Shown: positions 17,303 to 60,060 of the stretch, piece after piece
How positions within the stretch are numbered: position 1 is the first letter of the stretch
Layout: each line of letters begins with the position of its first letter
Assembly: GCA_002748355.1 (NCBI GenBank)
Contig: PDSF01000041.1
Location: 6,293-70,292, forward strand
DNA from: Planctomycetota bacterium
GTDB lineage: Bacteria; Planctomycetota; UBA1135; GCA-002748355
Direction of reading: 5' to 3'
DNA length: 64,000 bases
Notes under the pieces: generated by a model
Database searches by the model: none
Told to the model about the DNA's origin: nothing
Seen by the model: only the letters and a program-made list of their open reading frames with translations
Program-made: the position numbers and the translations under genes

Positions 17303-17317
17303 AGCGGAGCAAGCAGC

Positions 17318-18979: not shown

Positions 18980-18981
18980 AC

Positions 18982-19866
18982 ATGGACCTCAACGATCTCT
19001 GGCAAGAACACAAGACTTGGATCCTCGGCATTGTCGCTGGGCTGATCCTCTTCCTCGCCTGTAACTCAGTGATCGGCGGCAGCTTCGGCACCGAAAAGCT
19101 CAAACGGGCGATGGCCGGGCACCAGCGCAGCGTGGCCAGTAGCAAGATGTATGGCCAAGAAGAAGAACGGCAGGCGCGCAAGCTCAGCAAGGAGCTGGAG
19201 CAGCGCCTGCTGAGCTTGCAGCAGCGCAGCTACTTCGACCCGCAAGACCGTTACCTGCTTGAGGGCAAGGGCGATTACTCGACGCATTATCTGACCGTGA
19301 CCAGTGAGGACGAGATAGAGATGCGGCGGGCGATGAATACCGCCAACGTCGACTTCCTCGCGGCAAGGCTCGGTCTGCCGGCGAGTTCGCCGACCGAGCG
19401 GGATGAGGTGCAGAGGATGCTCCTTGGGCTGGATCTGGTCACCGATGCCTTGACCCGCCTGCTCGCGGCCTCCGATGAGGTCCTGACCCAGTTGCCCGGC
19501 CAGCACGGGCTGCGTGCGGTCGACAAGATCCAGATCGAGGCGGCGCCCAGGAAGCGAAACCGAAGCTCCCGTGGCTCCAAGGCTCCGGTCCAGCTTGGGG
19601 AGGAGGTCACGGTGCGCCTGGTCTTTCGTTCGGACTCGGTCACCGTCGAGCGTTGGCTCGAGCGCCTCCTGGGCGAGCGGGCTCTGCCGAGCTCGGGGGA
19701 CGAGGACGAGGTGAGCGAAGCGGAAGGCGGCGAGGCCGAGGCCGAGCACCAAGGCCCGCGCCCCATCCTGCTCAAGTCTCTGCAAGTCGAGGACGTCGGG
19801 CGCGAGTCTGGTGAGCCTCTGAAGGTGAGCGTCACGCTGTTGGCCCTGATTGCTAAGGAGAGCTGA
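18982..19866 (+). CDS. PilO/GspM-like protein
   Basis: N-terminal TM, coiled coil, ferredoxin-like beta strands; position after PilMN. Confidence 0.55.
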   Translation: MDLNDLWQEHKTWILGIVAGLILFLACNSVIGGSFGTEKLKRAMAGHQRSVASSKMYGQEEERQARKLSKELEQRLLSLQQRSYFDPQDRYLLEGKGDYSTHYLTVTSEDEIEMRRAMNTANVDFLAARLGLPASSPTERDEVQRMLLGLDLVTDALTRLLAASDEVLTQLPGQHGLRAVDKIQIEAAPRKRNRSSRGSKAPVQLGEEVTVRLVFRSDSVTVERWLERLLGERALPSSGDEDEVSEAEGGEAEAEHQGPRPILLKSLQVEDVGRESGEPLKVSVTLLALIAKES

Positions 19867-19868
19867 GC

Positions 19869-22751
19869 GTGCAGCTTCGCAAAGAACAGATTCTCTTCGT
19901 CGTTGTCCTGCTGATCGTGGTGTGGCTTTTCGCCTCCGATAAGGACGGCCGCATAGGCCGCAAGCTTCGGCGTCCCAGCAAGAAGGCCGTTCCGGCTATC
20001 GAACTACCCAACTCTTCGCTGGCCCAAGGAGCACAGAAAGAACTGGAGCGCGATGCCCGCGACCTCTTCCTCAAGCCCTCGGCCAGCAAGCCTTTGCCGC
20101 CGCTCGAATTGCCTCTGCCGGCGCTTGCCGATCTGCCGGTGCAGCTGCCGCTGCTTGAGCCTGGGCCGGTATTGGCCCGGGCGCATCTTTTGCGCGTAAA
20201 GCTTGGCGACTTGCCGAGGGTGGCCGCCCAGGCGAGGGGTGCCGAGGCGGGGGGCAGCGAGGACTCAGGTCCGGGTTCCGAGACCTCGGATGGGGCGCCG
20301 GATGAGGATCCGGATGGGAATGGGGCCGCAGATGGGGCGCCGCAGGAAGCTCCAGCAGGGCCGTCGTTTGAGCAGGAGCCCAGCACGGTCGTCGATCACA
20401 GCGACGAGTATGACCTCCTCACTCTGAATGATGGCCGCAAGGTCTGGGGCCAAGTGCGTGGGGAGCATCCCTTCGCCTATGGGCGTCCAGAGGACTCCAA
20501 TGTCTGGGCGTTGATCGGGCCCTTCAAGCAGCCCGTTCTCTTCCAGACCTATCGTCCGGAGAAGGGCACGGCTGGCATCACCAACCCGTGGCCTGCCGAA
20601 AAGGTGCTACGGGTCGAGTTTGCCAAGCGCGTCGAGAACAAGATCGCCTTGATGCAGCGGCGCATTCCCGATGACGACAGCGGGCTCAGCCTGCGTAAGG
20701 CCTTTGTGCTCGACTTGCTCCAGAATCATCGCGACAGCGAGGATGCTCTCAAGGAGGCGGCGCGGCAGGCGCAGCGGCACATCGAGCTGGCGCCCCATTA
20801 CATCGACGGCTACGAGCTGCTGGCGTTCGTCTACCATGCGACCGGCCAGTTCGAGAAGGAACTCGAGTTCTACGACAGCCTGGCGAACGGACCGTTCAAA
20901 GAGGCCGCATTCGTGCACGTTGGCCGGGCGGTGGTCGCGCGCAAGCTCGGCATGCACAGCTTGGCCGTGCGCGAGCTCGAGGCCGCGATCGCTAGAGATC
21001 GTAGCTACAGCCGAGCCTGGTTGGAGCTGGCTCGCTGTGCTCTCCAGGCCGGTGCTTCGGAGAAGGCGGTGGAGCATGCTCGCCGGGCCGCTTTGACCCG
21101 GGCCTCGGGCATGGAGGCGCGCGTCTCGATCGAGGTGGACCTGGTCCTCGTGCAGGCTTTGCTGGCAGGCGGGCAGTTCCAGGAAGCCGCCACCAGCCTG
21201 CTCGAGTTCGAGAATCGTGTTCGCGACCCGCAAGCTGCTCTGCTTGGCGAGATGCGCAAGTTGCGTGCTGCCGCCCAGCTCGGCCTCGGCAAGATCGCTG
21301 AAGCGCGCGCCAGCTATGAAGAGGCGGCGACCTTGGCACCCAGCGATGCCGAGGCCGCACTCGGGGCCTGTGTCGCCTCGCTGCGCAGTGGCGATCGCGC
21401 GGCGGCCCTGGCCCACGCCAAGGATGCGGCCCGGCGCGACCCCTTGCTGCGCGGCCGCGCCTACGCGGCTGAGGCCCTGCTCCTCGATTTGGCCGGCGGC
21501 CACGCCGAGGCGTTGGCGCGGCTGGCCGAGGCGCGCGAGATTGCGCCGCGAGGTCCCTACCTGCTCTATCTCCTGGGGCGCAGTTTGCGTTTGGCCGGAG
21601 AGTTTGGCGAGGCGCGGGAGGTCTTGCAGCTGCTCTTGCAGGAGCGCAGCGACTTCCTCGAATCGATGGCCGAGCGTGCTCTCGCCACCATGCAGCTGGC
21701 GCAGAGCGAGGCCAAGAACGACCCCGCTGGCGCCCTCGCGATGTTGGAGGAGGCCGAACGCTTTGCCGCGCGGGTGGCTCGTGACGAGGCCGAGCGGGGC
21801 AAGGATCCGATCTTCCTCGACCTCCTCGGGACCATTCGCTACCACCAACTCGATGGCGAAGGTGCTAAGGAAGCCTTCGAGCAGTCCCTGGCCTGGAAGC
21901 CCGGTCCCTACGCCAAGATCATGCTTGCCTTGATTGCCTACCGGCAGGGCTATACCGATCGGGCCATCACCGAGCTCGTGACCCTGACCCAGGAGATCCG
22001 CGATCCGAAGGACCGCTTCCGTAAGTTCGCGGAGAGGGCTCGCGATGCCATCATCGACCATCGCGGTAAGCGTCTCTTCGTCGATGAGTTCGAGCGGGAG
22101 CTCGGTGAGCTTTGGCAGCCCGAGTCGCGCCACCAGGCGAAATGGATGGCGGTGAATGGCCGGGTGCAGCTGCGCGGTACGTCGCAGGGCGAAGATCGTC
22201 TGGCCCGTTGCCGCTACACCGTGGACCAGGCCCGCAACTTCCTCGAACTGTCCACCGAGATCACTTTGTTGAAGGGCTTCAGTGCCCGCAAAGCGGTGTT
22301 GCGCATCAGTGATCTGCGCAGCTCCAATCTCAGCAGCGCCCGCAAATCGCGCTTCCTTCTGGAGGTCGGCTACGACGCCACGCGGGCGCAAGGCGCGGGT
22401 GGAGCCTTCGTCCACTTCCACCAGAATCATGGTGGTTCAAAGAAGGACCTCAGCGAGATTGGTGCCGGAGACCCCGGTTTCCCAGCGGAGCTGCGCATCG
22501 AGCGGGGCAAGCCTTTCACTGTCGTCGTGCGACGTCTCGGTGCCCAGCGGCAGAGCGGTCCCGGCGCCCGGCAAAAGGAGACGCTTGTCGTGCTGATCGA
22601 CGGCTTCGAGGTGCTGCGCCGTGATGTGGTGCAGGCCTTTGGTCTGCGCCAAAACCCGCTCGCCATCGACTTCCACGTTCAGGGTCTCGAGGGAACGAGG
22701 CTCGACACCGCCTTCGACAAGTTCCGTCTCGTGCGCTACGGCGAGGGATGA
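19869..22751 (+). CDS. Membrane-anchored TPR-rich protein with a C-terminal beta-sandwich (lectin-like) domain
   Basis: GTG start; TM; proline-rich linker; DLLTLNDGRKVWG barrel; many TPRs; beta-rich C-terminus (FVDEFER...W...). Confidence 0.75.
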   Translation: MQLRKEQILFVVVLLIVVWLFASDKDGRIGRKLRRPSKKAVPAIELPNSSLAQGAQKELERDARDLFLKPSASKPLPPLELPLPALADLPVQLPLLEPGPVLARAHLLRVKLGDLPRVAAQARGAEAGGSEDSGPGSETSDGAPDEDPDGNGAADGAPQEAPAGPSFEQEPSTVVDHSDEYDLLTLNDGRKVWGQVRGEHPFAYGRPEDSNVWALIGPFKQPVLFQTYRPEKGTAGITNPWPAEKVLRVEFAKRVENKIALMQRRIPDDDSGLSLRKAFVLDLLQNHRDSEDALKEAARQAQRHIELAPHYIDGYELLAFVYHATGQFEKELEFYDSLANGPFKEAAFVHVGRAVVARKLGMHSLAVRELEAAIARDRSYSRAWLELARCALQAGASEKAVEHARRAALTRASGMEARVSIEVDLVLVQALLAGGQFQEAATSLLEFENRVRDPQAALLGEMRKLRAAAQLGLGKIAEARASYEEAATLAPSDAEAALGACVASLRSGDRAAALAHAKDAARRDPLLRGRAYAAEALLLDLAGGHAEALARLAEAREIAPRGPYLLYLLGRSLRLAGEFGEAREVLQLLLQERSDFLESMAERALATMQLAQSEAKNDPAGALAMLEEAERFAARVARDEAERGKDPIFLDLLGTIRYHQLDGEGAKEAFEQSLAWKPGPYAKIMLALIAYRQGYTDRAITELVTLTQEIRDPKDRFRKFAERARDAIIDHRGKRLFVDEFERELGELWQPESRHQAKWMAVNGRVQLRGTSQGEDRLARCRYTVDQARNFLELSTEITLLKGFSARKAVLRISDLRSSNLSSARKSRFLLEVGYDATRAQGAGGAFVHFHQNHGGSKKDLSEIGAGDPGFPAELRIERGKPFTVVVRRLGAQRQSGPGARQKETLVVLIDGFEVLRRDVVQAFGLRQNPLAIDFHVQGLEGTRLDTAFDKFRLVRYGEG

Positions 22752-23431
22752 GCATGCAGTACAGAAGAGAGCCCATGCCGATGCGGAGCCAGCGAGGCCG
22801 CGCCGGTTTCACCCTGATCGAGCTTCTGATCGTCATCGGCATCATCTCCGGTCTGATGGTCTGGATCGTGCCGACCTTGTTGGGCGCGAGTCAGGAGACG
22901 GCGAAGATCAAGGAGACCCAGGTTCTGCTCCATGAGCTGGCCTCGCGGGCGGAGTCTTATGCGAACCAGCGTCGCTTCGGTGACTATCCTCCCGACAACT
23001 TCCGCGACCCCGCGCGCAAGCTCTTGGTCGTTGCCGACTCGATCAATCCCGGCATCGAGTCGCTCGTTGCCTTCCTCTCACGCGAAGACTCGAAGGACGA
23101 GGACCTGAGCCGCTTGCAGGAGAAGTTTTCGAATACCGACAATGACAAGTCCGATGCGCCGATCGGCCGTCTCGATCGCCCGGACAAGCTTGAGATCGTC
23201 GATGCCTGGGGCAACCCGATCGTCTACTTCACTCGCCGCAGCTACCGCCAAGAGCCCCAGACCTATCGCAACCAATATGGGGAAGACTTCTCGGTCTCAG
23301 CATGGAAGCGCAAAGACGGGAGCTTCTTCAACAACCGGCACTTCCAGCTGTTTTCTGCCGGGCCGGATGAGAAATACGGGACCCCGGACGATATAGGCCA
23401 CAACTTCGTGCCCGAAGAGCAGGGCGACTGA
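22748..23431 (+). CDS. Major pseudopilin-like protein (GspG-type)
   Basis: Class III signal G|FTLIELLIVIGII; DAWGNPIVY; SAGPDEKYGTPDDI. Confidence 0.88.
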   Translation: MSMQYRREPMPMRSQRGRAGFTLIELLIVIGIISGLMVWIVPTLLGASQETAKIKETQVLLHELASRAESYANQRRFGDYPPDNFRDPARKLLVVADSINPGIESLVAFLSREDSKDEDLSRLQEKFSNTDNDKSDAPIGRLDRPDKLEIVDAWGNPIVYFTRRSYRQEPQTYRNQYGEDFSVSAWKRKDGSFFNNRHFQLFSAGPDEKYGTPDDIGHNFVPEEQGD

Positions 23432-24507
23432 TGGGGCGTGGGGGGAGCGGCAGGGGGGCGCGATGGCAGCGTGAGCGCGGCTTCACGTTGCTGGAGATGC
23501 TGGTCGTCGTCGGGCTCATCGGCATCATGCTCGGCCTAGGCGTCGGCGCCTTGCAGCGACAGCGCAAGGCTCTCGAGCAGAGCGTGGTCAGCTTGCGCGA
23601 TCTGGTGCGCCTGGCCCGTGGCAATGCTCGCTTCTACCAGAGTTCCGTGCGCCTGGTTGTCGATCCGCCGCCGCGCAACGCTGCGCTGACTCAAACGCCG
23701 ACGGGAGAGCTCTATGAGCAGAGCTTCCGGGTGCTGGCGCTGCGGCCCTTGAGCGAGTGGAACTTCGATTTGGATGCCGCCAACGGCAGTTTTGGTATCG
23801 AAGCTAGCTTGGGGGCGGCGAGCATTGTTGACGCCGGGCGCTTCGGCCGCGGCCTGCGCCCTGACCCCGAAGGTGGGCAGCCGGGCGTTTTTGTGCGCAC
23901 GAGTCACTACAGCGAGTTCGACCTCAGGGAAGGCTTCGTGGCTCGCCTCGACCTCTGGCTTGAGTCGCACGAAGCCTGCACCATCCTGCGCCTGGGGCAG
24001 AGCTTTGAGCTTGGCGTGGATACCGGTGGCTATGCGCGCGGGCAGCTGACCTTCAGTGATGGGGCTGGCCAGGCCGGGCGCACGATTCGCTTGCGCGGGC
24101 TGCGGCCGCTGCCGCTGCGGCAGTGGTTCCGGCTGGCGTTCTCCTACGATGGACACAGCATCGTGCTGGAGCGGGATGGCTTGGAAGAGGACGAGAAGCC
24201 CGGTGCTGGACCGGTTTACTACGACACCCAGGCGGAGTTCTGGATCTCGGCCGGTGACACGCCGGTGCCGGGGCGCATCGACAGCGTTGAACTCTTCGCC
24301 TACGAGGCTCTCAGCGAGTTTTTGATCCCGCAGGATGTCCAGCTGGTCGAGGGGCCGGCGGCCCTGCACTTTGCGAAGGATGGGCGTCTCGACCCGCGCT
24401 ACCACTCAGCGCCAGTCACCTTCCGCATGAGCATGGGCGATGCGGCTGGCGGCACGAAGCCGCGACAAGAGAGCGTCACGATCGAGCTTGGGGGCCTGCC
24501 ACGATGA
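23431..24507 (+). CDS. Minor pilin (GspH/FimT-type) with an inserted LamG/ConA-like domain
   Basis: G|FTLLEMLVVVGLIG; WNFD...GRFGRGL...QWFRLAFSYDG..IVLERDG...G.ID LamG-like pattern. Confidence 0.82.
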   Translation: MGRGGSGRGARWQRERGFTLLEMLVVVGLIGIMLGLGVGALQRQRKALEQSVVSLRDLVRLARGNARFYQSSVRLVVDPPPRNAALTQTPTGELYEQSFRVLALRPLSEWNFDLDAANGSFGIEASLGAASIVDAGRFGRGLRPDPEGGQPGVFVRTSHYSEFDLREGFVARLDLWLESHEACTILRLGQSFELGVDTGGYARGQLTFSDGAGQAGRTIRLRGLRPLPLRQWFRLAFSYDGHSIVLERDGLEEDEKPGAGPVYYDTQAEFWISAGDTPVPGRIDSVELFAYEALSEFLIPQDVQLVEGPAALHFAKDGRLDPRYHSAPVTFRMSMGDAAGGTKPRQESVTIELGGLPR

Positions 24508-27500
24508 AGAGATCTGCACGCGCAGCGAGGCGGGGCCAAGGTCCTGCGAGCGGGGGGGCTCGGCCGGAATCGGGACTGGCCTTGCTGGCCGTCCTGGTGG
24601 TGCTGGGGATCATGGTCGCTCTGGTTGGGCCCTTCTTGGTCAGCATGTCCCAGTCCGGGGCTGCGGCCGAGCAGGAGGCCAGTGTTCGCGAAGCTCGCGT
24701 GCTGGTGCGTAGCTTGCGTGACAGCGCCTTGCAGAGCATCGCCGAGTCCCAGGGGGATGCTGACCCGACGCCTTCCTTCGACGGGCGCGAGGAGTTTCCC
24801 GAGTATTGGACTCCGCCGGTGCTGGCTGAGGAACAAGCCGGGCCTGATGCCGAGGAGCATCCTCTTGGTGAGACCCGACCGCTGCAAGTGGAGCTGCACG
24901 ATGTGCAGGGGCGCATTTTTGCGCCGACCATGCCCCAGCAAGTCTGGGCCAATCACTTTGCTTGGTGGGCGGTGCTGGCGCAGGACCTTGAGCCAGATGA
25001 GAGCGAGGAGCTGTCGATTCGCGGTGGCGAAGGGCTGCCCGATGCTGGCTATATCTGGATTGATAACGAGTGCGTTCGCTATGAGCGAAAGGAGGGGGGG
25101 CGGCTCTCTGGTTTGACCCGCGGCTGGTCTCCCGCTGGCGAGGTCAAGGCCGGAACCATTCCCGATCCCTACGGGCCGGCGGCGAAGCACCGCTCGGGCA
25201 CGAGCATCCACGACATGCGGGTGCGGCTGCTGGCGACTTGGGCCTTCGACCCGATGTTGAAGCCGCGGCGGGGGCAGCGCCGGGACTTCGTGCCTTTTGC
25301 CAGTGTCGAGGACATCGCTCGCGTCGAGTGCGAGCCGTTCGGGGGCTTTGCTCGCGACAAGGTCGAGGCGCTGCGGCGGCTCCTGGTCTTCGATAGCGCA
25401 CGGGTCGATGGCGGCATGCTTGGGCGAGCGGAGCGGGTCTTCAATACCATTCGAGCTGGCGAGACCCTTTCCTTGGTGGTCAAGGATGGCAGCTCCTTTC
25501 CCCCCGGAACCGTCGTCTGCGTGGAGATTGGTGACAGCATCGAGTGGAGCCTCGTGGTGTCGCTGCGCTTCCAAGGCCGTGGCAGCTCGGCGCGGCTGCC
25601 AGGCGGTGGCCGCACCCTGGTGCTCGACCGCCCGCTCGCCTTGAGCGCTGGCGAAGAGGAAGCTCGCGTGCGCCCCTTGCTGCCGGTTCCTGTCAACATC
25701 AACACGGCCGATGCCGAGCTGCTAGCGCTTCTCTTCGAGGCGCTGCGTAGTCACCGCCTGGGGAAGCAGCAGGGCGGCAGCCATGACCCGCTGCCTCGCT
25801 CCAAGGCCAAGCTCATCGCCGAACGCATCCTCCAGATGCGCAGCTACGACCCGGAATCTGAGGAGGCGGTGGAGCGGCCGTTTGAGAACTGGCAGGCCCT
25901 ACACGAGCGCGTGCTGGAGCCGCTGCGCGACGAGAAGCTGCTCAGCAATGCCGAACTCTTTCATCTCTACGCGCAGATGATGAACGGTCTCGACCAGCGG
26001 CTTGACCAAGCTCGGGTGCCGGTGGCCTTTGAGAGTTCGGGGCTGGTGGAATACCGTGCTGCGGCGGCCGTGCTTTCGGGGGCCGGCAGAACGCTTGCGC
26101 GCCGAGAGGTGCAAGGGCTGGCGCTGCCGCAGCCGGCTCGTAGTGTCGAGCGCCTCTACGCCACTCAAGAGCGCTTCGACGAGGCCACACGGCTGTCGCG
26201 CTCCCGGCCCTATTGGAGCACGGGGCCGATGGCGACAACGCTCCGCCAGGAGCGCAACTATCAGGAACCTCCCGATCCCGCCTTCGCGCAGCTGCTGCCA
26301 TGGCTCAAGGGTGAGTCGGCTCGCTGGCCGTCCCAGAGTGAGAGCGACAGTGTGGCGATGCTGGGGACCAGCCGTTTGCCCAATCTCCATCCTTTCAGCA
26401 TGGGCGCGAGTTTTCCCCTGGCCAATCACCCCGAGGGCAGGGACCTGTCGGCGCAGCCGTCTGAGCCCTTACTGGTCGAGGTTTCGGCGGAAACCCTGTC
26501 GACGGCCGTCCGCCAGATGATCGAGAAGGTGGCGAAGGGTGCTGAGGCTCTGCTGCCGATGTCCCTGCGCTTCGGCAGCGGCCAAGGTGGCGGCATGGGG
26601 ATCGGCTGGGGGCTCTCGGCCTGGTGGAAGCCCCGCTCCCTCCGCGAGTCTGTCCTCTTCGACCTCAACGGCGGCGAGGCCTTCCGTAACCGAATCTTCC
26701 TCGGTCTCGACAGCCAGGGCCTTAGCCTCCGGCTTTATGACAACGCCGGTCAGGACCCCGATCCGGGCGTTACCCAGCCGACCGAAACGGCACTTCGCTG
26801 GGAAGTCCCCATCGATCAGGCAGCCCTCGAAAAGGATCTCTGGTTCCACACGGCGATCGAGATCGCCCGTGGCTCGCCCAGTGGCCTCGCCCTCTTTACC
26901 GACGGGGCTTTGCTCGGCAAGCCGGCGTATCTGAGCTACGCCCGCGAGGGCCTGGGGGAACTGAGCTTGGACCTGAAGCCGGAGATCTCCTTCGCGGCGC
27001 AGCTGCAAGCGATGTCGCAGCCGCTCTCGGTCGAGGATGGCTCCAGCTTCCCGGAGAAGGGGGTGTACCGCATCGGTAACGAACTCTACGAGGCGACCCG
27101 AAATGGAAACAAGCTGAATCCGCGCCTGGATGACTCGATGGGCGGGCGCATGGCCCGCGGAACTTTCCGTATCCAAGACTCGGGGGGGCAAAATTCGCTG
27201 CAGCTTGGCCAAAACCCAGGGCAGCGCGGTTTCCTGAATCGGCGGGCGTTCGCCGATGCCTGCCCCGCTGGGGCGAGCCTTGAACTCTACGGCTATAGCA
27301 ACCCGGTGCTACGCGACAGCTTTATCGTTCCCGGTAAGGCGAAGTTGCAGGGCAGCTGCGGCCGCTGGCGGCCGCTGGTGGTGCTTGAAGCTCCTGATGA
27401 TGTCGTGCTCAACGAGGGCTCACGCTCGCTCAAGCTTGGCAAGGGCCTGCTCGAGGACAGCCATACTGCGAAGCTGGTTCTGGGGCCAGCCGATGGCAGC

Positions 27501-29720
27501 AACGCTAGGGTCTCGGGGCTCGACAGTGCTGGCGGTTATGCCGTGCTTGTGCAGCGGCGTTATCGTTGGTTGGGCCCCCGCGTTCAAGGCAAGGAGATTC
27601 GTATCGAAGAGAACGTTGGCGGCGTCGAACTCGTACGTTACTCCGGCTTCGCCGGTAGCGCCGTCACCATTACCCGAGGCAATTTCCAGCTGGGCGTGCT
27701 GCCACGGAGTCCATCGGGTAACGCTGGGGCCTCGGCTTCAGGAGCCGATTACTTGACGAAGCGCCACTTCGTCACCGAGTGGAACAAGGAGCTTTTTACC
27801 GGCGACCCCAATGCCGAAGAGACGATGTGGTGCTATTTCGTTCCGGTATCGATCGCGATCACGGGGGGGCTGAACCTGAGGGATCCGGCAGAGCTGGGGT
27901 ATTCGAATTACCTGCAGATCTACAACCCTAATGATGAGAGCAAGTGTGAGTGGGTACGCTACGACAAGCTTGCGGATAACGGCCGTTACGCCCTGCGCAT
28001 CCACCCCCGTGCTCTTAGGAATCTGGAGCAGCTGCTCACGACGCAGAGGTCGCAGCGGCAAAAAGAACCGAGTGCTCAGGGCCCGTACCAGGTCGATACC
28101 GGCGACCGAGTTCTGGTCGAGCCACCGCGCACGGGGTGGCCCCGTATTGGCGAACCGGACAGCAAAGAGACGGCTCTCGAATACAGCGCCCGGCTGCGCT
28201 TCCGCTTTCGTGGCGACCCTTTTACTGGGACCGCGACCCACGAGCAGGCGAACTGCGATGTGATGCCGGTATTCCGGACGCTGTTCAGCTGGCGCCTCGA
28301 ACTTGGGCGCCCGGGGCGGGGCGATCGCGTCGCGCTGATGACCGGGGCCGATAGCGCCAACCAGTACGTCGATTGGCAGACGGTGAATTGGAGCGCCCGC
28401 GTCGCGGTGGAATACGCAAGCAGATTGCCGCTTGGTGGGAGCTTTGCCAGTCAGGCCGGTGATCCGGTAGGGCCCATCATCCAGGGGCAGAGGGAGCCGC
28501 GTTTCAATCTCGTGGCCCTTAGGGATGGGGCGCAGTACTTGTATCAGGGCCGCCGCTTCGTGCCCGATACCCGGCGCCTGGACCGCATGGTCAAGTTTCC
28601 CTCCGGGGAGTTGCCGATGCAGCTGGACTCCAAGGCCTATGTCGGCCGCTCAGGCATCGAGGGGCTGCCCTTCGATGGTCTCGTCGACAAGCTTCGCGGC
28701 TACCTCGGTCAGGCTGCCCGGGCTGGGGCAAACGGGGCGATCGACTCCCTCTATGGCGTCCTTGCTGCGCCGGTTAGCGCCGCTGACATGACGTGGAAGG
28801 TAGCTTTCAGTCCCTCTTCGTTTTCTATAGGAGGAGCCGGCGTCCATGGAGGTCTCCTCCTGGTCGGCGGTGAGATCGTCGGCTGGACTAGGCGGGATCG
28901 GAGCAACGGGACCCTGGAGATCGCGAGCAATGGCCGCGGTCTGCTCGGAAGCGAGGCTCGCGCCCACGGCGCTGGCACCCATGTGCACTGGGTCTCTTGC
29001 CGGCCAGCGAGCTTCCTCTCCGTCCCCATGCAGGCGAAGGACGACAGCTTTGCGGTGGCCTATGGAAGGGCTCTGCCGCAGCAAGAGGGCACGGTGCTGA
29101 TAGGTAAGGAACTCCTGCATTACTGTTGGTCGCGCTCCCAAGATGGCGGCATGACTCTGCTGCATATGCCGAGCGGCGAGACTTGGTCGCAGGGTGGAGA
29201 GGATTCTCTCGGGCGCTCCGGCCTATTCCGGGGGCGATATGGGACGACTGCGGCGCCGCATGGCAACGGCGAAATGGTCATCTCCTGGCCCTTCCGTTAC
29301 TGGGATCGCTTCAAGGAACGCGCAGATGATCCCGAGCTGGCCTACCTGGGCTTTAGCGCCGAGATGCCGGACATCTTCGTGACCCGGGTCTCCTGGGAGG
29401 AAGAGATTCCCGACCCGACTCTCGACCTGGTCTTGCTAGTGCGCTGTGACGAACGGGCGCCATGGACCGCGGACCCCAGACAGAACCCGTGGCTGTGGCG
29501 TTTTCGCCATCCGCGCAGCCCAAGCGGCGATCCTGAGCTGCGGGTGATGGCTCAGGGCAGCAAGTGGGAGTTCCGCTTCGGCGCTCTCTATCGAAGCGGC
29601 GCCTTTGATCCGGAACGCTTCCGGGCCACTGGCTGGAAGCGCACGCCCATCTTGCGCAAGTTCTCTTGGTCGTACGAGGGGCAGACGCGGATCTTCCGCG
29701 AGCGGGAGAGTTCCCGATGA
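24504..29720 (+). CDS. Giant GspK/PilX-type minor pilin (1738 aa) with a LamG-like domain and repeated beta-modules
   Basis: G|LALLAVLVVLG with no Glu at +5; LHDVQGRI; PFASVEDI; VNINTA; repeated ...G.I.IgxE...Y...RG..GT.A..H modules. Confidence 0.8.
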   Translation: MKRSARAARRGQGPASGGARPESGLALLAVLVVLGIMVALVGPFLVSMSQSGAAAEQEASVREARVLVRSLRDSALQSIAESQGDADPTPSFDGREEFPEYWTPPVLAEEQAGPDAEEHPLGETRPLQVELHDVQGRIFAPTMPQQVWANHFAWWAVLAQDLEPDESEELSIRGGEGLPDAGYIWIDNECVRYERKEGGRLSGLTRGWSPAGEVKAGTIPDPYGPAAKHRSGTSIHDMRVRLLATWAFDPMLKPRRGQRRDFVPFASVEDIARVECEPFGGFARDKVEALRRLLVFDSARVDGGMLGRAERVFNTIRAGETLSLVVKDGSSFPPGTVVCVEIGDSIEWSLVVSLRFQGRGSSARLPGGGRTLVLDRPLALSAGEEEARVRPLLPVPVNINTADAELLALLFEALRSHRLGKQQGGSHDPLPRSKAKLIAERILQMRSYDPESEEAVERPFENWQALHERVLEPLRDEKLLSNAELFHLYAQMMNGLDQRLDQARVPVAFESSGLVEYRAAAAVLSGAGRTLARREVQGLALPQPARSVERLYATQERFDEATRLSRSRPYWSTGPMATTLRQERNYQEPPDPAFAQLLPWLKGESARWPSQSESDSVAMLGTSRLPNLHPFSMGASFPLANHPEGRDLSAQPSEPLLVEVSAETLSTAVRQMIEKVAKGAEALLPMSLRFGSGQGGGMGIGWGLSAWWKPRSLRESVLFDLNGGEAFRNRIFLGLDSQGLSLRLYDNAGQDPDPGVTQPTETALRWEVPIDQAALEKDLWFHTAIEIARGSPSGLALFTDGALLGKPAYLSYAREGLGELSLDLKPEISFAAQLQAMSQPLSVEDGSSFPEKGVYRIGNELYEATRNGNKLNPRLDDSMGGRMARGTFRIQDSGGQNSLQLGQNPGQRGFLNRRAFADACPAGASLELYGYSNPVLRDSFIVPGKAKLQGSCGRWRPLVVLEAPDDVVLNEGSRSLKLGKGLLEDSHTAKLVLGPADGSNARVSGLDSAGGYAVLVQRRYRWLGPRVQGKEIRIEENVGGVELVRYSGFAGSAVTITRGNFQLGVLPRSPSGNAGASASGADYLTKRHFVTEWNKELFTGDPNAEETMWCYFVPVSIAITGGLNLRDPAELGYSNYLQIYNPNDESKCEWVRYDKLADNGRYALRIHPRALRNLEQLLTTQRSQRQKEPSAQGPYQVDTGDRVLVEPPRTGWPRIGEPDSKETALEYSARLRFRFRGDPFTGTATHEQANCDVMPVFRTLFSWRLELGRPGRGDRVALMTGADSANQYVDWQTVNWSARVAVEYASRLPLGGSFASQAGDPVGPIIQGQREPRFNLVALRDGAQYLYQGRRFVPDTRRLDRMVKFPSGELPMQLDSKAYVGRSGIEGLPFDGLVDKLRGYLGQAARAGANGAIDSLYGVLAAPVSAADMTWKVAFSPSSFSIGGAGVHGGLLLVGGEIVGWTRRDRSNGTLEIASNGRGLLGSEARAHGAGTHVHWVSCRPASFLSVPMQAKDDSFAVAYGRALPQQEGTVLIGKELLHYCWSRSQDGGMTLLHMPSGETWSQGGEDSLGRSGLFRGRYGTTAAPHGNGEMVISWPFRYWDRFKERADDPELAYLGFSAEMPDIFVTRVSWEEEIPDPTLDLVLLVRCDERAPWTADPRQNPWLWRFRHPRSPSGDPELRVMAQGSKWEFRFGALYRSGAFDPERFRATGWKRTPILRKFSWSYEGQTRIFRERESSR

Positions 29721-30943
29721 GTCCTTCAGCAAGCGATGCGAGGCGGGGCAGCAGCAGCGGTATGACGCTGCTGGAACTGATGGTCGTTCTCGGGCTTTTG
29801 GTCATGCTGCTCGGGGGACTGGTGACCATCCTGGATCGCTCGCTCTTCATCTGGCAGGTGGGGGAGGAAGGCGCGGATCTGGAAGCGCGGGCGTACTCGG
29901 CCCTCGACAGTATCTCCGGCGATCTCGACCGTATGGCACCGCTCCAGTCGAAGAGCTGGCGCCTTGGCCGCGTGGCTGTGCTGCAGGGGCGTGAGGGGCA
30001 GGTGAGTGCCACTGGTCGCTTCGTTCTTGATCACCTGCCCTATCTTGAGGATGGCAAGCCAGTCGCCATTGAGGATACCGAGGGCAAGGCCCAGCTCTTC
30101 GACTGGTATCCGCGGCTGCGCTTCGTCATGCAGCTCGACCCGATCGAGGCCGAGCGCCGGCTTCGTGGACAGCTGCGCCGGCAGATCCTCGAGGACGAAG
30201 GCGACTTGGGCCGCTCCGAGCTCGAACGCCGGGTGCGCGAGAAGCTGGTGGACCATAGTCCGGAGACTCTCGGGGAGATCCTGCTGCGCGTGCGCCCGCA
30301 GCTTGAGGGCGAGGGCGTCTACCTCGATCTCTATCGGGACTGGCGAAGCCTGGGCGAAGTGAAGGCGGGGCGCTGGGTCGACGGCGCCAGGATGCCGGAT
30401 CCGGGTGAGCCTTGGCTGCGGCACTTGCTCTACGTGGGCCTGAGGCTGCGTTCGCAGTTCACCAGTGATTTCGACGCGGCTCCTGGAGACGAAGCTGCGG
30501 CGGAGTCGGCTTGGGATTCGGCGCGTGCCGGGCTCCTCGGAAGCGATCATCCTGTGCTCGGCTTCAGCCTCGACTTGGATGCACAGAGCGAAGAGGATCC
30601 ACTCGACGACGTCATGCCCAAGGCCTACGAGCTTACGGTGGTCGTCGACGGCGGACCGGGTCGATCGCAGCTGGCCTTCCTCAGCAGCGCCATCGATGCC
30701 AAGGAAAAGCACATCCAAGTGGACTACCCCGAGCGCCTGCCAAACGGCGAGCGCAACCATATAAAGATCGGCCCCGAGTGGATTCGCTACAGCGGGATTG
30801 ACGGCAATCGCTTGCTTGGGGTGCATCGAGGCGTGCGCAATACCAAGGCGCGGCCGCATGCCGCCGCTGCGAGGATCCACTCTGGCCGCGAGGCAGTGCT
30901 GCGCGTGCCGATAGCAGTCTCCCGGAGCAACTGGAATGGATAG
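29717..30943 (+). CDS. Minor pilin (GspJ/PilW-type) with one C-terminal beta-module
   Basis: G|MTLLELMVVLGLL; DDVMPKAYELTVVV; ATGA overlap with the preceding gene. Confidence 0.82.
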   Translation: MSPSASDARRGSSSGMTLLELMVVLGLLVMLLGGLVTILDRSLFIWQVGEEGADLEARAYSALDSISGDLDRMAPLQSKSWRLGRVAVLQGREGQVSATGRFVLDHLPYLEDGKPVAIEDTEGKAQLFDWYPRLRFVMQLDPIEAERRLRGQLRRQILEDEGDLGRSELERRVREKLVDHSPETLGEILLRVRPQLEGEGVYLDLYRDWRSLGEVKAGRWVDGARMPDPGEPWLRHLLYVGLRLRSQFTSDFDAAPGDEAAAESAWDSARAGLLGSDHPVLGFSLDLDAQSEEDPLDDVMPKAYELTVVVDGGPGRSQLAFLSSAIDAKEKHIQVDYPERLPNGERNHIKIGPEWIRYSGIDGNRLLGVHRGVRNTKARPHAAAARIHSGREAVLRVPIAVSRSNWNG

Positions 30944-31376
30944 GCGCAAGACCCAGCAAGGCGGCTTCACGCTGATCGAGATCCTGGTTGCGCTGGCGAT
31001 CCTAGGGCTCGGTGTCGGGACTGCGGTCGGCGGCTTTGTTCGGGGCGCGACGACCCAGGCCCAGGGCGTATTGGTGCGTGATGCCTCGCGCATCGCCGAA
31101 ATCGTCCAGGAGCGCTTGCGGAGCGAGGACCTACTCGGGCGCGACTTCGATGCCCGGCCCCAGGACCTTCTCGACCAGAAACTCGTGGGCTATCCCGGCC
31201 TTCGCTACGACCTCGTCTTCGAGGGCGAAGTGCAGCTGGGCTTCCCCCTCTACGTTCGCTTGACCGTCCGCTGGCTCAGCCGCGGGCAAGAGGTCAGCGA
31301 GATCTTTCGTTTTCCTCTTCCGCGTGGCGCTAGCCTCCCCGCGCGGATCCGAGCGGCACAGGAGTCCTCCCGATGA
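30936..31376 (+). CDS. Minor pilin (GspI/PilV-type)
   Basis: G|FTLIEILVALAILG; 146 aa; YVRLTVRW strand. Confidence 0.85.
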   Translation: MDRRKTQQGGFTLIEILVALAILGLGVGTAVGGFVRGATTQAQGVLVRDASRIAEIVQERLRSEDLLGRDFDARPQDLLDQKLVGYPGLRYDLVFEGEVQLGFPLYVRLTVRWLSRGQEVSEIFRFPLPRGASLPARIRAAQESSR

Positions 31377-32875
31377 AGAAGCCCGCCTTAGTCTCTGTCC
31401 TGCTGGTGATAGCGCTCCTCCTCGGGCTCTCCTCCAGCGCCGCCGCCGAAACCCTGCGTCTGCGCAACGGCGCTCTGCTCGTCGGGAAAATCGAGAATCC
31501 CGATGAGAACGGCTTCGTCTTCCTGCGCATTCGCGATGGCGGGAGGATCCACTTGCGTTGGGAGGATCTGATCCTGCGCGATGCCGAGCGGCTGCGCGCC
31601 TCCTTCCAGCTCCTTGGTCAGAGCGACGGCGACGTGGTGAGCTTCCGCGCCTTCCGGGTCTGGCGCAAGACCAGTGGGGCACCCAAGGCGTTGACCGGTG
31701 AGCTGCTGGGGCGCGATGGGCAGAAGATCCGCCTGCGCATCCTGGGCAATACCATCGAGCTGCCGCTGATGAGCTTGACCGGGACGCCGCAGTTCGTGGA
31801 TGTGCCGATTCGCGAGATCCTGACCCCTGACGAGATCTACCGGCGCAAGCTGGGCGAGATGAATCCGGGGGAGGATGCTGACAAGCACGTGCTGCTCGCC
31901 GACTACCTGATCCGCGTGGAAGAGTTCCAGCGGGCGAAGGAGCATCTGCAGGAGGCGCAGAGGCTCGGCAGTGGGAGCCAACCCAACAAGATCATCGGCC
32001 TGCTTGAGCGTGTGGAGAGCATGCTTGCGAACAAGGCGGAGGCCGATCACTTGCGTGAGATCTCGGTCGCGGCCAACCGCAACAAGTTTCCGAAGGCCTT
32101 GCAGCTGATGGCTTCCTTCGAAGAGAAGTATCCGAGCAGCAAGCTCGCCAGCGAGTTCAGCCGTCGCAAGGCCTTGGTCATGAAGGCGCGTGAGCGCTAC
32201 TTGATCGACAAGGTCACCGAAGACTGGTACCGCTATGCCCGTGACGAAGCAAAGAAGCTGGCCCGTTCGCGTGACCTGGGGGTCGAGCAAGTCCAGGTGA
32301 AGGCTGCCGAAGACATGGGCCAGGCGATTCGTGAGCGCATCGCTCGTATGAGGAAAATCGAAGTGCCGGAAGTCGAGGCGCTTTTCCGCCGGCGCTTCGA
32401 GTTTCCGCTCGTGCCGAAAATCCAGCCGGCGACCTATGGTCAGGGCTCCTGGATTCTGGGCGAGAAGGATCTGATCGCCGGAACCGCGCGCGGCAAGCTC
32501 GCAGAGAAGGCGGAGTCCAATACTATTACGCTGGGGAACCAGGTGCGGCGCGAGCGGGAGCGGCGTCTGCGCGAGTTCATTCGTAGCCAAGGCCGGCGGG
32601 CTGGCCAGAACCCTCAGCAAGCGGCGCAACGACTCGACAGCCCTAGCGATTGGTGGCAGGAGGCTTCGACGCGGGAGCGGCAGCTCTTCATCCTGGCGAG
32701 CTATGCCGAACGTTCGGGAGACATGAAGGTCGAGAGGGCGCAGCTGCGTCCGTGCATGACCTGTGCCGCCTCGGGGCGGGTTCAGGTCCCGACCGCGGAG
32801 GCGGGGCGCATGGTTTCGGTGACTTGCCCGACCTGTCATGGGCTGAAGCACTTCCGAACCATTCGTTTCCGATGA
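31373..32875 (+). CDS. Exported protein with N-terminal small beta-barrels, helical repeats and a C-terminal CxxC...CxxC zinc finger
   Basis: Signal peptide; ETLRLRNGALLVGKI; CMTCAASG...CPTCHG. Confidence 0.75.
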   Translation: MKKPALVSVLLVIALLLGLSSSAAAETLRLRNGALLVGKIENPDENGFVFLRIRDGGRIHLRWEDLILRDAERLRASFQLLGQSDGDVVSFRAFRVWRKTSGAPKALTGELLGRDGQKIRLRILGNTIELPLMSLTGTPQFVDVPIREILTPDEIYRRKLGEMNPGEDADKHVLLADYLIRVEEFQRAKEHLQEAQRLGSGSQPNKIIGLLERVESMLANKAEADHLREISVAANRNKFPKALQLMASFEEKYPSSKLASEFSRRKALVMKARERYLIDKVTEDWYRYARDEAKKLARSRDLGVEQVQVKAAEDMGQAIRERIARMRKIEVPEVEALFRRRFEFPLVPKIQPATYGQGSWILGEKDLIAGTARGKLAEKAESNTITLGNQVRRERERRLREFIRSQGRRAGQNPQQAAQRLDSPSDWWQEASTRERQLFILASYAERSGDMKVERAQLRPCMTCAASGRVQVPTAEAGRMVSVTCPTCHGLKHFRTIRFR

Positions 32876-59957: not shown

Positions 59958-60060
59958 CGTGCAAAGGCAGCTGGGGTCAGGCTTGTGGAGTCCGGCAGGT
60001 AGAGTCAGGCCCTTGGAGGCCTTGCGCCCTGCGGCCGCACAACTTCTTTCGGGCGGCCTG

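What the first reader, a model, noticed from the sequence alone, without database searches (positions are those of the whole stretch)
24504..29720. Giant K-type pilin built from repeated phage-tail-like beta-modules
Seen in sequence: a 1738-aa protein with a GspK/PilX-type N-terminus (no Glu+5, LHDVQGRI, NINTA). It carries at least four clear and up to seven copies of a 60-80 aa module. Examples: LSIRGGEGLPDAGYIWIDNECVRYERKEGGRLSGLTRG...AAKHRSG (~24975-25214); LVVKDGSSFPPG (~25470); LSVEDGSSFPEKGVYRIGNELYE (~27020); GLLLVGGEIVGW...RGLLGSEARAHGAG (~28850-28985); VAYGRALPQQEGTVLIGKELLHY...RGRYGTTAAPHGNG (~29040-29270). A LamG-like domain sits at about 26600-26930. Established: K/X pilins cap the filament tip, and GspK is usually a few hundred aa. 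Inference from memory: the consensus V.d.s.fP..G.i.Ig.E.i.Y....l.g..RG..GT.A..H..G resembles a module common in phage tail/baseplate and other virion structural proteins. This suggests a type IV filament tipped by a multivalent, virion-like adhesin. I do not recognise a described system with this architecture.
Basis: partly seen in the sequence, partly recalled or inferred. Interest (0 to 1): 0.85.

Follow-up and report, generated by a model that had tools for sequence, protein, structure and literature searches.

The report
Giant GspK-type pilin with phage-tail modules
This is an intact 1738-residue version of GspK, the small cap subunit of secretion and type IV pilus fibres, enlarged by a lectin-like domain and five or six copies of a small beta module that otherwise fills phage tail fibres; about half of sampled Planctomycetota carry it, it has not been studied, and it probably forms a large binding head at the fibre tip.

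Summary
ORF 24504-29720 (+) encodes a 1738-aa protein with a GspK-type N-terminus: invariant Gly before a hydrophobic helix, no Glu+5, and the NxNTA helix-hairpin-helix region.

Profile comparisons show that four modules are mutually homologous (M1 166-240, M3 838-932, M4 1445-1498, M5 1517-1596; hhalign probability 85-97%, controls 2.5% or less). A fifth (MX, about 1005-1065) is a divergent copy. A sixth (MY) is suggestive only.

The phage link is real at profile level:
- Module instances hit PHROG tail, baseplate and virion-structural families (best E 8e-9).
- They also hit Pfam PF23666, the Rcc01698 (RcGTA megatron) C-terminal domain.
- A module HMM finds 5114 representative proteins. The top hits are phage fibre or virion giants with 10-25 copies.

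The adjacent J-like pilin carries one further copy. Nothing else in this genome does.

The family and its FHA-PilM-TPR-G-H-K-J-I operon are conserved in over 100 species, and 143 of 301 sampled Planctomycetota genomes have a homolog.

Most likely this is a built-in giant head on a type IV filament tip complex. That function is inferred, not shown. I rate it a new variant of the known "modular pilin" principle.

The parts
24504..29720 (+). Whole gene: 1738-aa giant GspK-type minor pseudopilin (K1738, P0001)
   Evidence: ORF and translation. There are 24 near-full-length homologs in the protein database and 112 species genomes. No internal stops occur in any of the full-length homologs.
24504..24998 (+). 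Leader (res 1-24, predicted prepilin-peptidase site after invariant G24), hydrophobic/amphipathic alpha1 helix (25-80) and first pilin strand with LHDVQGRI (127-133)
   Evidence: Sequence. Invariant G24/A26/L27/L31/P43. AF2 helix H25-80 and strand E127-133 at pLDDT 85-97. NCBIfam GspK NF037980 matches residues 23-137 at E 4e-6, and up to 5e-11 in shorter family members.
24999..25223 (+). Module M1 (res 166-240), inserted inside the GspK fold
   Evidence: hhalign probability 96-97% against M3, M4 and M5. HMM iE 1.6e-11. Weak PHROG baseplate-wedge and virion hits. AF2 shows 6 short strands at 169-237.
25455..25679 (+). M2-like beta domain (res 318-392).
   Evidence: hhalign probability 6% or less against every module. 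The HMM does not detect it. AF2 predicts a confident beta domain at 323-392.
25680..26183 (+). GspK-type helical insert with the PVNINTA helix-hairpin-helix motif (398-402), followed by the last pilin strands (515-540)
   Evidence: Family profile against PDB hits GspK 5vtm_X at E 0.0024, aligned at ...aPVNvNTAs.evL.a.f. Pfam T2SSK PF03934 hits residues about 397-414 at E 0.016, below cut-off. AF2 helices at 404-493 and strands at 515-540.
26601..26963 (+). LamG / concanavalin-A-like lectin domain (res about 700-820)
   Evidence: Foldseek PDB matches agrin, neurexin and Gas6 LamG domains at probability 0.94-0.98 over about 105 columns. PF13385 is present in homologs P0005-7, P0046 and P0051 at the collinear position. 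The window's own protein has no Pfam hit at E<=0.01.
27015..27299 (+). Module M3 (res 838-932), with a roughly 40-residue disordered loop inside
   Evidence: hhalign probability 85-97% against M1, M4 and M5. HMM iE 3.6e-9. AF2 shows low pLDDT at 877-917.
27516..27698 (+). Module MX (res about 1005-1065), a divergent fifth copy
   Evidence: hhalign probability 95.8% against M1 and 76% against M3. MX was not in the HMM training set, yet it is detected in 63/63 homologs and in 13 at iE<1e-3. The window's own copy scores only -1.3 bits.
27906..28289 (+). MY (res about 1135-1262), a possible sixth copy split by an insert of about 65 residues (EWVRYD ... FRGDPFTGTATHEQ)
   Evidence: Not detected intact. 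Spliced halves score a median of 5.5 bits over 63 homologs, against a null 99th percentile of 3.5 and maximum of 7.2. Six homologs exceed 10 bits. The window's own copy scores 0.8 bits. Suggestive only, and I chose the splice points by eye.
28836..28997 (+). Module M4 (res 1445-1498)
   Evidence: hhalign probability 85-97%. HMM iE 2.3e-10. PHROG 1101 'tail protein' matches residues 1417-1494 at E 0.0024.
29052..29291 (+). Module M5 (res 1517-1596)
   Evidence: hhalign probability 94-96%. HMM iE 6.5e-15.
29301..29717 (+). Highly conserved C-terminal beta-sandwich (res 1600-1738) of unknown family
   Evidence: Many invariant residues. AF2 shows long strands at 1615-1725 with pLDDT about 80-92. 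This is the part best conserved across the phylum: matches to residues 1350-1735 occur in distant families.
29717..30943 (+). J-like prepilin (G|MTLLE) with one module copy at its C-terminus (30710-30883)
   Evidence: N_methyl motif. N- and C-terminal sequence. Module HMM E 6.6e-7; this protein was not in the training set. The C-terminal module is present in the downstream gene of about 65 of 73 loci.
22748..24507 (+). G-like prepilin (227 aa, 22748-23431) and H-like prepilin carrying its own LamG domain (358 aa, 23431-24507)
   Evidence: N_methyl and GspG/GspH N-terminal hits, and Laminin_G_3 at E 1.7e-7. Conserved upstream of K in 62-64 of 80 loci.
30936..32875 (+). I-like prepilin (146 aa, 30936-31376) and a Sec-exported 500-aa protein with a C-terminal CxxC...CxxC zinc-ribbon-like motif (31373-32875)
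   Evidence: GspI/PilV N-terminal hits. Signal peptide and Cys motifs. The 500-aa protein is conserved in 72 of 80 loci.
15191..22751 (+). Upstream operon genes: FHA-domain membrane protein, PilM-like protein (553 aa), 294-aa bitopic protein, and a 960-aa TPR protein
   Evidence: Pfam FHA at E 1e-17, PilM_2 at E 2e-10, and TPR families. The order is conserved in 43-56 of 80 loci.

Best explanation
K1738 is the K-type (GspK/PilX-class) cap subunit of a type IV filament tip complex that is widespread in Planctomycetota.

Shown:
- It has a prepilin-like N-terminus without Glu+5 and the two GspK signature regions.
- G-, H-, J- and I-like prepilins flank it in a translationally coupled operon.
- It carries a LamG-like domain and five (perhaps six) copies of a ~65-residue beta module. 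This module is homologous to the Rcc01698_C / phage tail-fibre repeat.
- The J-like neighbour carries one more copy.

Inferred:
- A prepilin peptidase cuts after G24.
- The pilin core (about 1-165 plus 393-560, with M1 and M2 as inserts) joins the J- and I-like subunits to prime a filament of the G-like pilin. The H-like subunit would link this tip complex to the filament.
- One of the four GspE/PilB-type ATPase machines encoded elsewhere in the genome drives assembly. The operon's PilM-like, bitopic, TPR and FHA proteins would form the alignment and regulatory parts.
- The ~1200-residue C-terminal extension (LamG, modules, conserved beta-sandwich) rides on the filament tip as a large head. 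It would bind a ligand, most plausibly a glycan or polymer, or dock other proteins.
- The module on J probably packs against those on K.
For: GspK identity:
- NF037980 matches at E 4e-6 here and up to 5e-11 in collinear shorter members.
- The family profile's only significant PDB hit is GspK (E 0.0024).
- PF03934 hits the same spot.
- The AF2 topology fits, at pLDDT 80 and pTM 0.77.

Pilin neighbours and coupling.

Operon conservation: the gene order holds in nearly all 80 loci. 112 species genomes encode the family, and 143 of 301 genomes across the phylum have a homolog.

Modules.

Phage and GTA homology of the module.

Other points:
- In this 3.95-Mb genome the module occurs only in the K and J proteins.
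- The module is also fused to other pilin classes elsewhere: P0038 (HpsC-like), P0100 and P0158 (PilV-like).
- The LamG-like domain is supported.
- ATPases and secretins exist elsewhere in the genome.
- Bulky modules grafted on tip pilins act as adhesins in known cases (PMC8179133).
Against: - No experiment bears on this. All relatives found in the locus scan come from metagenome-assembled genomes.
- The GspK matches are far below the curated cut-off (26.6 against 130 bits). Foldseek of the N-terminal model did not list GspK among its 50 best PDB matches.
- The operon has no ATPase, platform, secretin or peptidase gene, so the partner machine is unknown.
- A head of roughly 190 kDa must pass a secretin, or the fibre may stay periplasmic.
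- The module's function in phages is unknown. In RcGTA the corresponding region is a fibre-binding domain, not a receptor-binding one (PMC7296036).
- BFVD holds only viral proteins, so its hits cannot show that the fold is virus-specific. Foldseek against PDB gave no hit at E<=1e-3.
Confidence: 0.65

Rival explanations
1. This is a T2SS-type periplasmic pseudopilus. The filament never leaves the cell, and the giant K head works inside the periplasm or secretin vestibule as a piston head, plug or substrate-recruiting platform rather than as a surface adhesin.
For: - The subunits score best against T2SS models (GspG, GspH, GspI, GspK).
- The closest solved relative is T2SS GspK.
- A roughly 190-kDa head is large for a secretin channel.
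- Periplasmic helper genes follow the pilin genes: a PPIase and a Sec-exported zinc-ribbon protein.
Against: - The genome already has a compact canonical T2SS-like cluster on contig C55, with four pseudopilins, an ATPase and a secretin.
- The operon has a PilM-like gene, which is typical of type IVa pilus systems.
- LamG and fibre-type modules fit an exposed binding role better.
- PilY1-size tip proteins are known to be presented on type IV pili (PMC7541494).
Confidence: 0.17
2. The head is a docking scaffold. The K and J modules are protein-protein attachment sites, as in the fibre-binding domain of the RcGTA megatron, and they hold separate secreted binding proteins at the filament tip. K itself would not bind the final ligand.
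For: - The module matches PF23666, which lies in the C-terminal, fibre-binding region of Rcc01698 (PMC7296036).
- The same module sits on two subunits of one tip complex.
- There is precedent in CofB, which acts as an adapter for the secreted protein CofJ (discussed in PMC8179133).
- A conserved exported 500-aa protein lies in the operon.
Against: - No partner carrying a matching module exists elsewhere in the genome.
- K also carries a LamG-like lectin domain of its own.
- In phage fibres the module occurs in 9-25 tandem copies, which looks more like a shaft or spacer element.
Confidence: 0.12
3. K is not a filament subunit. The GspK-like N-terminus serves only as an uncleaved membrane anchor for a large periplasmic or surface structural protein.
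For: - The GspK similarity is weak.
- There is no peptidase or motor in the operon.
- K-type subunits lack Glu+5, so sequence alone cannot prove processing.
Against: - The position between H- and J-like prepilins, with overlapping start and stop codons, is conserved in over 60 loci.
- Both GspK signature regions are kept, together with the invariant Gly at -1.
- The AF2 pilin topology fits.
Confidence: 0.05

Closest known systems
GspK / XcpX / EpsK, the T2SS minor pseudopilin K (NCBIfam NF037980, Pfam PF03934; structures 5VTM, 6UTU), and its type IVa pilus counterpart PilX/PilK
   Same: It has a prepilin-like N-terminus without Glu+5 and a long alpha1 helix. A helical insert with the NxNTA helix-hairpin-helix motif sits inside the pilin sheet. 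It is encoded next to I-, J- and H-like subunits, and it presumably takes the cap position in the tip complex.
   Different: It is five to six times larger (1738 aa against about 300). Two beta domains are inserted before the helical insert, and a ~1200-residue C-terminal extension follows the pilin core. It scores far below the family cut-off (26.6 against 130 bits). The gene order is G-H-K-J-I, and no motor or secretin gene is in the operon.
Modular pilins: S. sanguinis PilB (vWA module) and PilC (ConA-like lectin), ETEC CofB, V. cholerae TcpB, T. thermophilus ComZ (PMC8179133)
   Same: The principle is the same: a pilin module carries grafted functional modules that are presented at the filament tip. 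A concanavalin-A-like lectin module is among them.
   Different: The carrier is a K-type cap subunit. The cargo is much larger; the survey in PMC8179133 names an 860-residue protein as its extreme case. The cargo is built from a phage-fibre-type repeat that InterPro-based surveys would miss, since the window protein has no Pfam hit.
PilY1/PilC tip adhesins of type IVa pili (PMC7541494)
   Same: It is a large (>100 kDa) multi-domain protein thought to sit on the minor-pilin tip complex and to mediate adhesion.
   Different: PilY1 is a separate non-pilin protein with a C-terminal beta-propeller that docks on the minor pilins. Here the large head is covalently part of the K pilin, and no PilY1-like gene was seen in the operon.
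Rcc01698 (RcGTA g15 'megatron') C-terminal domain, Pfam PF23666; phage gpJ-type tip attachment proteins (JBD30, 8RK3); giant phage tail-fibre and virion structural proteins (PHROG 4406, 2885, 1101, 11439, 708)
   Same: It has the same ~65-residue module, with consensus V......P...G.L.IG.EL..Y...G..RG..G..P..H..G..V.
   Different: Those are virion or GTA tail components, often with 9-25 tandem copies. Here five or six dispersed copies sit in a cellular pilin. The similarity is detectable only with profiles; tblastn against 50,697 phage records found nothing.
Verru_Chthon cassette proteins (TIGR02596 and relatives), a PVC-group set of prepilin-type proteins that includes a very large one. My recollection of the large member is from memory.
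   Same: It is a PVC-superphylum cassette of several prepilin-type proteins. The G-like neighbour has a weak hit to cassette protein D (E 0.0095).
   Different: K1738 itself hits no Verru_Chthon model at E<=0.01, so it is not a member on the evidence here.

Membership tests
GspK-type minor pseudopilin (NF037980 / PF03934) | Class III (prepilin) signal: Gly at -1, hydrophobic alpha1, no Glu at +5 | tested here: met
   The sequence reads ESG|LALLAVLVVLGIMVAL. G24, A26 and L27 are invariant in 63 homologs. AF2 predicts helix 25-80. Cleavage itself was not tested.
GspK-type minor pseudopilin (NF037980 / PF03934) | Score above the curated family cut-off | tested here: not met
   NF037980 scores 26.6 bits against a cut-off of 130 and covers only model positions 2-100 of 307. 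PF03934 scores 17.9 bits against 24.2.
GspK-type minor pseudopilin (NF037980 / PF03934) | Helical insert with the helix-hairpin-helix NxNTA motif inside the pilin fold | tested here: met
   PVNINTADAELLALLF lies at 396-411. The family profile aligns this region to solved GspK 5vtm_X at E 0.0024. AF2 predicts helices at 404-493, followed by strands at 515-540.
GspK-type minor pseudopilin (NF037980 / PF03934) | Whole-fold similarity to solved GspK | tested here: inconclusive
   Foldseek of the 840-residue model did not list GspK among the 50 best of 392 PDB matches. The model could not be cut into domains with the tools at hand.
GspK-type minor pseudopilin (NF037980 / PF03934) | Encoded with, and forming a complex with, I- and J-type subunits | tested here: inconclusive
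   Adjacent J-like and I-like prepilins are present and conserved. Complex formation could not be tested because no multimer folding was available.
Modular pilin (sensu PMC8179133) | N-terminal pilin module plus one or more extra domains not specific to type IV filament biology | tested here: met
   The protein has a pilin core plus a LamG-like domain and phage-type modules.
Rcc01698_C domain (Pfam PF23666) / phage tail-fibre repeat | Significant match of the module to the family model | tested here: inconclusive
   14 of 128 family module instances match at E<0.1 (best 6.6e-4), and none of the window's own copies does. A PilV-like protein found with the module HMM passes the cut-off (P0100, 31.5 against 27 bits). 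PHROG tail and virion families match 13-39 of 128 instances, down to E 8e-9.
LamG / Laminin_G_3 (PF13385) | Match to the family model or fold | tested here: inconclusive
   The window protein has no Pfam hit at E<=0.01. Homologs hit PF13385 at the collinear position: P0051 passes the cut-off at 32.4 bits (cut-off 27.6) and P0046 falls just below it at 25.9 bits. Foldseek gives probability 0.94-0.98 to LamG structures, at E 0.1-0.2.
PilY1/PilC tip adhesin | C-terminal PilY1 beta-propeller (IPR008707); not a pilin | tested here: not met
   There is no Pfam or NCBIfam hit of that kind, and the protein has a pilin N-terminus.
Verru_Chthon cassette protein A-type giant prepilin-cassette protein | Match to the NCBIfam/TIGRFAM model | tested here: not met
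   GspK is the only NCBIfam hit of K1738 at E<=0.01.

The most novel reading that the evidence does not exclude
Planctomycetota have built the business end of a retractile type IV fibre from the same repeat that phages use in their tail fibres and baseplates. The K and J subunits together would form a virion-tail-like, multivalent capture device with lectin-like domains on K (and on the H-like neighbour). This device could be the so-far unidentified tip of the fibres proposed to 'fish' polysaccharides into the planctomycetal periplasm (Boedeker et al. 2017, cited in PMC12673574). Module exchange between phage fibres and pilus tips would then be a route by which each acquires binding specificities.
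Probability: 0.15. Interest if true: 0.85.

Novelty: new variant of a known kind. Interest (0 to 1): 0.62.

Why it matters
Type IV filaments owe much of their versatility to what sits at their tip. Here the cap subunit itself has grown into a protein of about 190 kDa, built from a lectin-like domain and a repeat shared with phage tail fibres.

The family is large. Of the 149 best module-HMM representatives, 128 are 50%-identity clusters of this family, and about half of the sampled Planctomycetota genomes carry it. It sits in a strictly conserved operon, and no paper found in the literature searches describes it.

It offers concrete candidates for the unknown surface fibres and polymer-capture apparatus of planctomycetes. 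It also extends the 'modular pilin' idea to the K-type cap. Finally, it defines a widespread ~65-residue module (5114 representative proteins) that links pilins, a gene transfer agent and phage fibres, and whose function nobody has determined.

Tried and rejected
- Self-BLAST of the protein gave no off-diagonal hits. Pairwise Smith-Waterman between the modules is mostly insignificant. The repeats become visible only with family profiles.
- Pfam on the whole protein found no family.
- Foldseek against PDB gave no match at E<=1e-3 for either model. GspK was not among the 50 listed matches.
- tblastn of the M4-M5 segment against 50,697 annotated phage records found no match. There is therefore no recent transfer from a known phage.
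- The module profile against PDB sequences gave only one weak hit, JBD30 tip attachment protein J at E 0.33.
- M2 as a module copy is rejected on sequence grounds.
- Mis-assembly or a fused-gene artefact is rejected. Full-length collinear homologs without stops occur in over 60 loci from independent assemblies.
- A prophage remnant is rejected. In this genome the module occurs only in the K and J pilins, and the flanks are pilus and housekeeping genes.
- Cluster names gave almost no taxonomy for the non-family hits.
- The partner machine could not be identified. The ATPase cluster on contig C70 has no pilin genes nearby by a regex scan, but that is only a hint.

Full report
**The gene.** ORF 24504-29720 (+) is open and encodes 1738 residues. 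Its ATG overlaps the TGA of the upstream gene (ATGA at 24504-24507). Its own TGA overlaps the ATG of the downstream gene at 29717. It is therefore one link in a chain of translationally coupled genes. G+C is about 64-66%, like the surroundings.

**Surroundings.** The + strand from 15191 to about 33900 reads as follows:
- an FHA-domain protein
- a PilM-like protein (553 aa)
- a 294-aa bitopic protein
- a 960-aa TPR protein
- a G-like prepilin (227 aa)
- an H-like prepilin with its own LamG domain (358 aa)
- K1738
- a J-like prepilin (start 29717)
- an I-like prepilin (146 aa)
- a Sec-exported 500-aa protein with a zinc-ribbon-like C-terminus
- a PPIase

ScpB follows these genes. The four small pilins have canonical G|FTLxE or G|MTLLE sites. 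K1738 has ESG|LALLAVLVVL with no Glu+5, as GspK/PilX-type subunits do.

No ATPase, platform protein, secretin or peptidase is in the window. The 3.95-Mb genome holds four GspE/PilB-type ATPases, several PilT-like ATPases and five secretins on other contigs. One of these groups, on C55, is a compact T2SS-like cluster with its own four pseudopilins. Another, on C48, has a pilin next to PilB- and PilT-like genes.

**Is it a K-type pilin?** Two separate GspK signatures match, in the right order.
- The N-terminal 115 residues hit NCBIfam GspK at E 4e-6. Shorter collinear family members reach 5e-11.
- For a profile of residues 1-840 from 63 homologs, the only PDB sequence hit below E 0.01 is GspK (5vtm_X, E 0.0024). 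The alignment falls on the PVNvNTAs..vL helix-hairpin-helix region. Pfam T2SSK touches the same residues weakly.

The AF2 model of residues 1-840 has mean pLDDT 80 and pTM 0.77. It shows a 55-residue N-terminal helix, a strand at 127-133, two beta domains (M1 and M2), a helical block at 404-493 and a strand pair at 515-540. This is a pilin fold with a helical insert, as in GspK, plus two extra inserts.

The scores are far below the curated cut-offs, and Foldseek did not list GspK among its 50 best PDB hits. I therefore call it GspK-type, not a certified family member.

**The repeats.** Within the single sequence the copies are barely detectable. On an alignment of 63 full-length homologs, profile-profile comparison gives these results:
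- M1 (166-240), M3 (838-932), M4 (1445-1498) and M5 (1517-1596) match each other at probability 85-97%, with E-values down to 6e-11.
- MX (about 1005-1065) matches M1 at 95.8%.
- All 35 comparisons with unrelated stretches of the same protein give 2.5% or less.

Aligning 128 instances yields the consensus V......P...G.L.IG.EL..Y...(17)...G..RG..G..P..H..G..V. The Glu is invariant, and Pro, Gly, Tyr and Arg are nearly invariant.

An HMM of these instances finds MX in all 63 homologs although MX was not used to build it; 13 are found at iE<1e-3.

MY looks like a copy split by an insert of about 65 residues. Spliced halves score a median of 5.5 bits, against a null 99th percentile of 3.5. I chose the splice points by eye, and the window's own copy scores only 0.8 bits, so this is suggestive only.

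Verdict on the repeats: four clear copies, a fifth that is solid at family level, a possible sixth, and seven not shown.

**A second carrier.** A six-frame scan of the whole genome with the module HMM finds the module in only two proteins. One is K1738. The other is the C-terminus of the adjacent J-like pilin (E 6.6e-7; window 30710-30883). The copy on J is conserved in about 65 of 73 loci that extend far enough downstream.

**The phage connection.**
- Of the 128 module instances, 39 hit PHROG 4406 (virion structural protein, best E 4e-7), 37 hit 2885 (baseplate wedge), 32 hit 1101 (tail protein, 8e-9), 21 hit 11439 (tail fibre) and 14 hit 708 (baseplate wedge).
- 14 of 128 hit Pfam PF23666, Rcc01698_C. 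Rcc01698 is the 'megatron' baseplate protein of the Rhodobacter gene transfer agent, and its C-terminal region is the fibre-binding domain (PMC7296036).
- In reverse, the module HMM finds 5114 representative proteins at E<=1e-3 among 1.84 billion.
- Ten giants of 3.8-7.6 kaa with 10-25 copies head that list. The two that were scanned match phage virion, tail-fibre and tail-collar families. Smaller multi-copy hits are phage-like too, and one is a T4-type long tail fibre with nine copies.
- Of the 149 best representatives, 128 belong to the K family and about 17 are not pilins; those scanned against PHROGs matched phage tail or virion families. Three carry the module on other pilin types: HpsC-like P0038, and PilV-like P0100 and P0158.
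- The only PDB sequence hit of the module profile is the tip attachment protein J of phage JBD30 (E 0.33).
- Foldseek of the C-terminal model (mean pLDDT 77) against BFVD gives 31 hits at E<=1e-3. The named ones are tail fibre, fibre, structural, tip-attachment and tail-hub proteins.

Three caveats apply. BFVD is viral only. Against PDB nothing reaches E 1e-3, although phage portal-tail and baseplate chains head the list. Direct tblastn against 50,697 phage genomes finds nothing, so the relationship is ancient or fast-evolving and not a recent capture.

**Other domains.** Residues about 700-820 form a LamG-type beta-sandwich.
- Foldseek gives probability 0.94-0.98 to agrin, neurexin and Gas6.
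- PF13385 is present at the collinear position in homologs.

The last 140 residues form a strongly conserved beta-sandwich with no family assignment. Residues 626-698 and 877-917 are predicted to be disordered.

**Distribution.**
- The protein database gives 24 homologs, most of 1700-1780 aa.
- The species-genome collection gives 112 genomes, and almost all of the 80 listed loci are labelled Planctomycetota MAGs.
- The gene order FHA-PilM-u294-TPR-G-H-K-J-(I)-u500-(PPIase)-ScpB is kept almost everywhere.
- An even sample of the phylum shows a homolog at E<=1e-10 in 143 of 301 genomes, which is 118 of 238 genera. Some of these assemblies are closed. The conservation is best at the two ends of the protein.
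- Shorter collinear members of about 1340-1450 aa exist.

**Mechanism.** What is shown is the anatomy described above. I infer that K1738 is processed like a prepilin. It would form the top of an H-I-J-K priming complex for a filament of the G-like pilin. It would carry its ~1200-residue extension on the filament tip as a binding or docking head, with the J module packing against it.

The partner motor is unknown. The ATPase cluster on C70 has no pilin genes nearby, but that is only a hint.

I considered three rivals: a purely periplasmic T2SS-type pseudopilus with K as piston head, a docking scaffold for separate binding proteins, and a mere membrane anchor. None is excluded by computation.

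**Comparison with the known.** Grafting modules on pilins is established (PilB, PilC, CofB, ComZ; PMC8179133), and GspK itself is cited there as a pilin with an extra domain. Three things are new here:
- the scale, since the survey in that paper names 860 residues as its extreme
- the K-type carrier
- cargo built from a phage-fibre/GTA repeat that domain databases barely cover

Two literature searches found no description of this family. A recent review of the phylum does not mention type IV pili or type II secretion, and says only that pili from crateriform structures are discussed as part of a polymer-uptake system.

Earlier reports of this scan on homologs in other genomes reach the same reading. 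They are not independent evidence. I reached my reading before I saw them, and I tested the claims here.

**Verdict.** It is a new variant of a known kind, of real interest to people working on type IV filaments and on planctomycete cell biology. Its function remains entirely inferred.

Noticed in passing
window 29717-30943 (module at 30710-30883): The J-like prepilin ends in one clean copy of the same module (...HIKIGPEWIRYSGIDGNRLLGVHRGVRNTKARPHAAAARI...). This is conserved in about 65 of 73 related loci. Canonical GspJ/PilW has no such appendage.
   Followed up: yes
window 23431-24507: The H-like prepilin (358 aa) carries its own Laminin_G_3 domain (E 1.7e-7). Two subunits of the putative tip complex therefore bear lectin-like domains.
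   Followed up: partly
window 31373-32875: A Sec-exported 500-aa protein has a C-terminal CxxC...CxxC zinc-ribbon-like motif and no family assignment. It is conserved directly after the pilin genes in 72 of 80 loci.
   Followed up: partly
window 33912-35018: ScpB (chromosome segregation) follows the pilus operon in 63 of 80 related loci. This is an unexpectedly stable neighbourhood for a housekeeping gene.
   Followed up: no
genome contig C65, about 29578 (- strand): A 215-aa paralog of the G-like prepilin has a nearly identical N-terminus (RGFTLIELLIVIGIIAGMMVWLVP). It lies outside the window and may be an alternative major subunit.
   Followed up: no
genome contig C70, 112918-116862: A cluster of two GspE/PilB-like ATPases and one PilT-like ATPase has no prepilin genes detected nearby by a motif scan. 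It is a candidate motor for the window's motor-less pilin operon.
   Followed up: no
proteins P0038, P0100, P0158 (from the module HMM search): The same phage-type module is fused to other pilin classes elsewhere: an HpsC-like pseudopilin with 6 copies, and PilV-like pilins of 836-880 aa. Pilin-plus-module fusions are therefore not confined to the K family.
   Followed up: partly
window 50399-52051 (-) and 56157-57878 (+): Two gamma-glutamyltranspeptidase paralogs (E 2e-159 and 1e-167) lie about 4 kb apart on opposite strands.
   Followed up: no
window 57927-60152 (-): A 741-aa protein is built from at least five CarboxypepD_reg-like (transthyretin-like) repeats.
   Followed up: no
window 10457-11365: A MerR-HTH protein with a B12-binding domain (CarH-like architecture) sits next to cobamide salvage genes (CobT- and CobS-like) and a FecCD/periplasmic-binding-protein transporter.
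   Followed up: no
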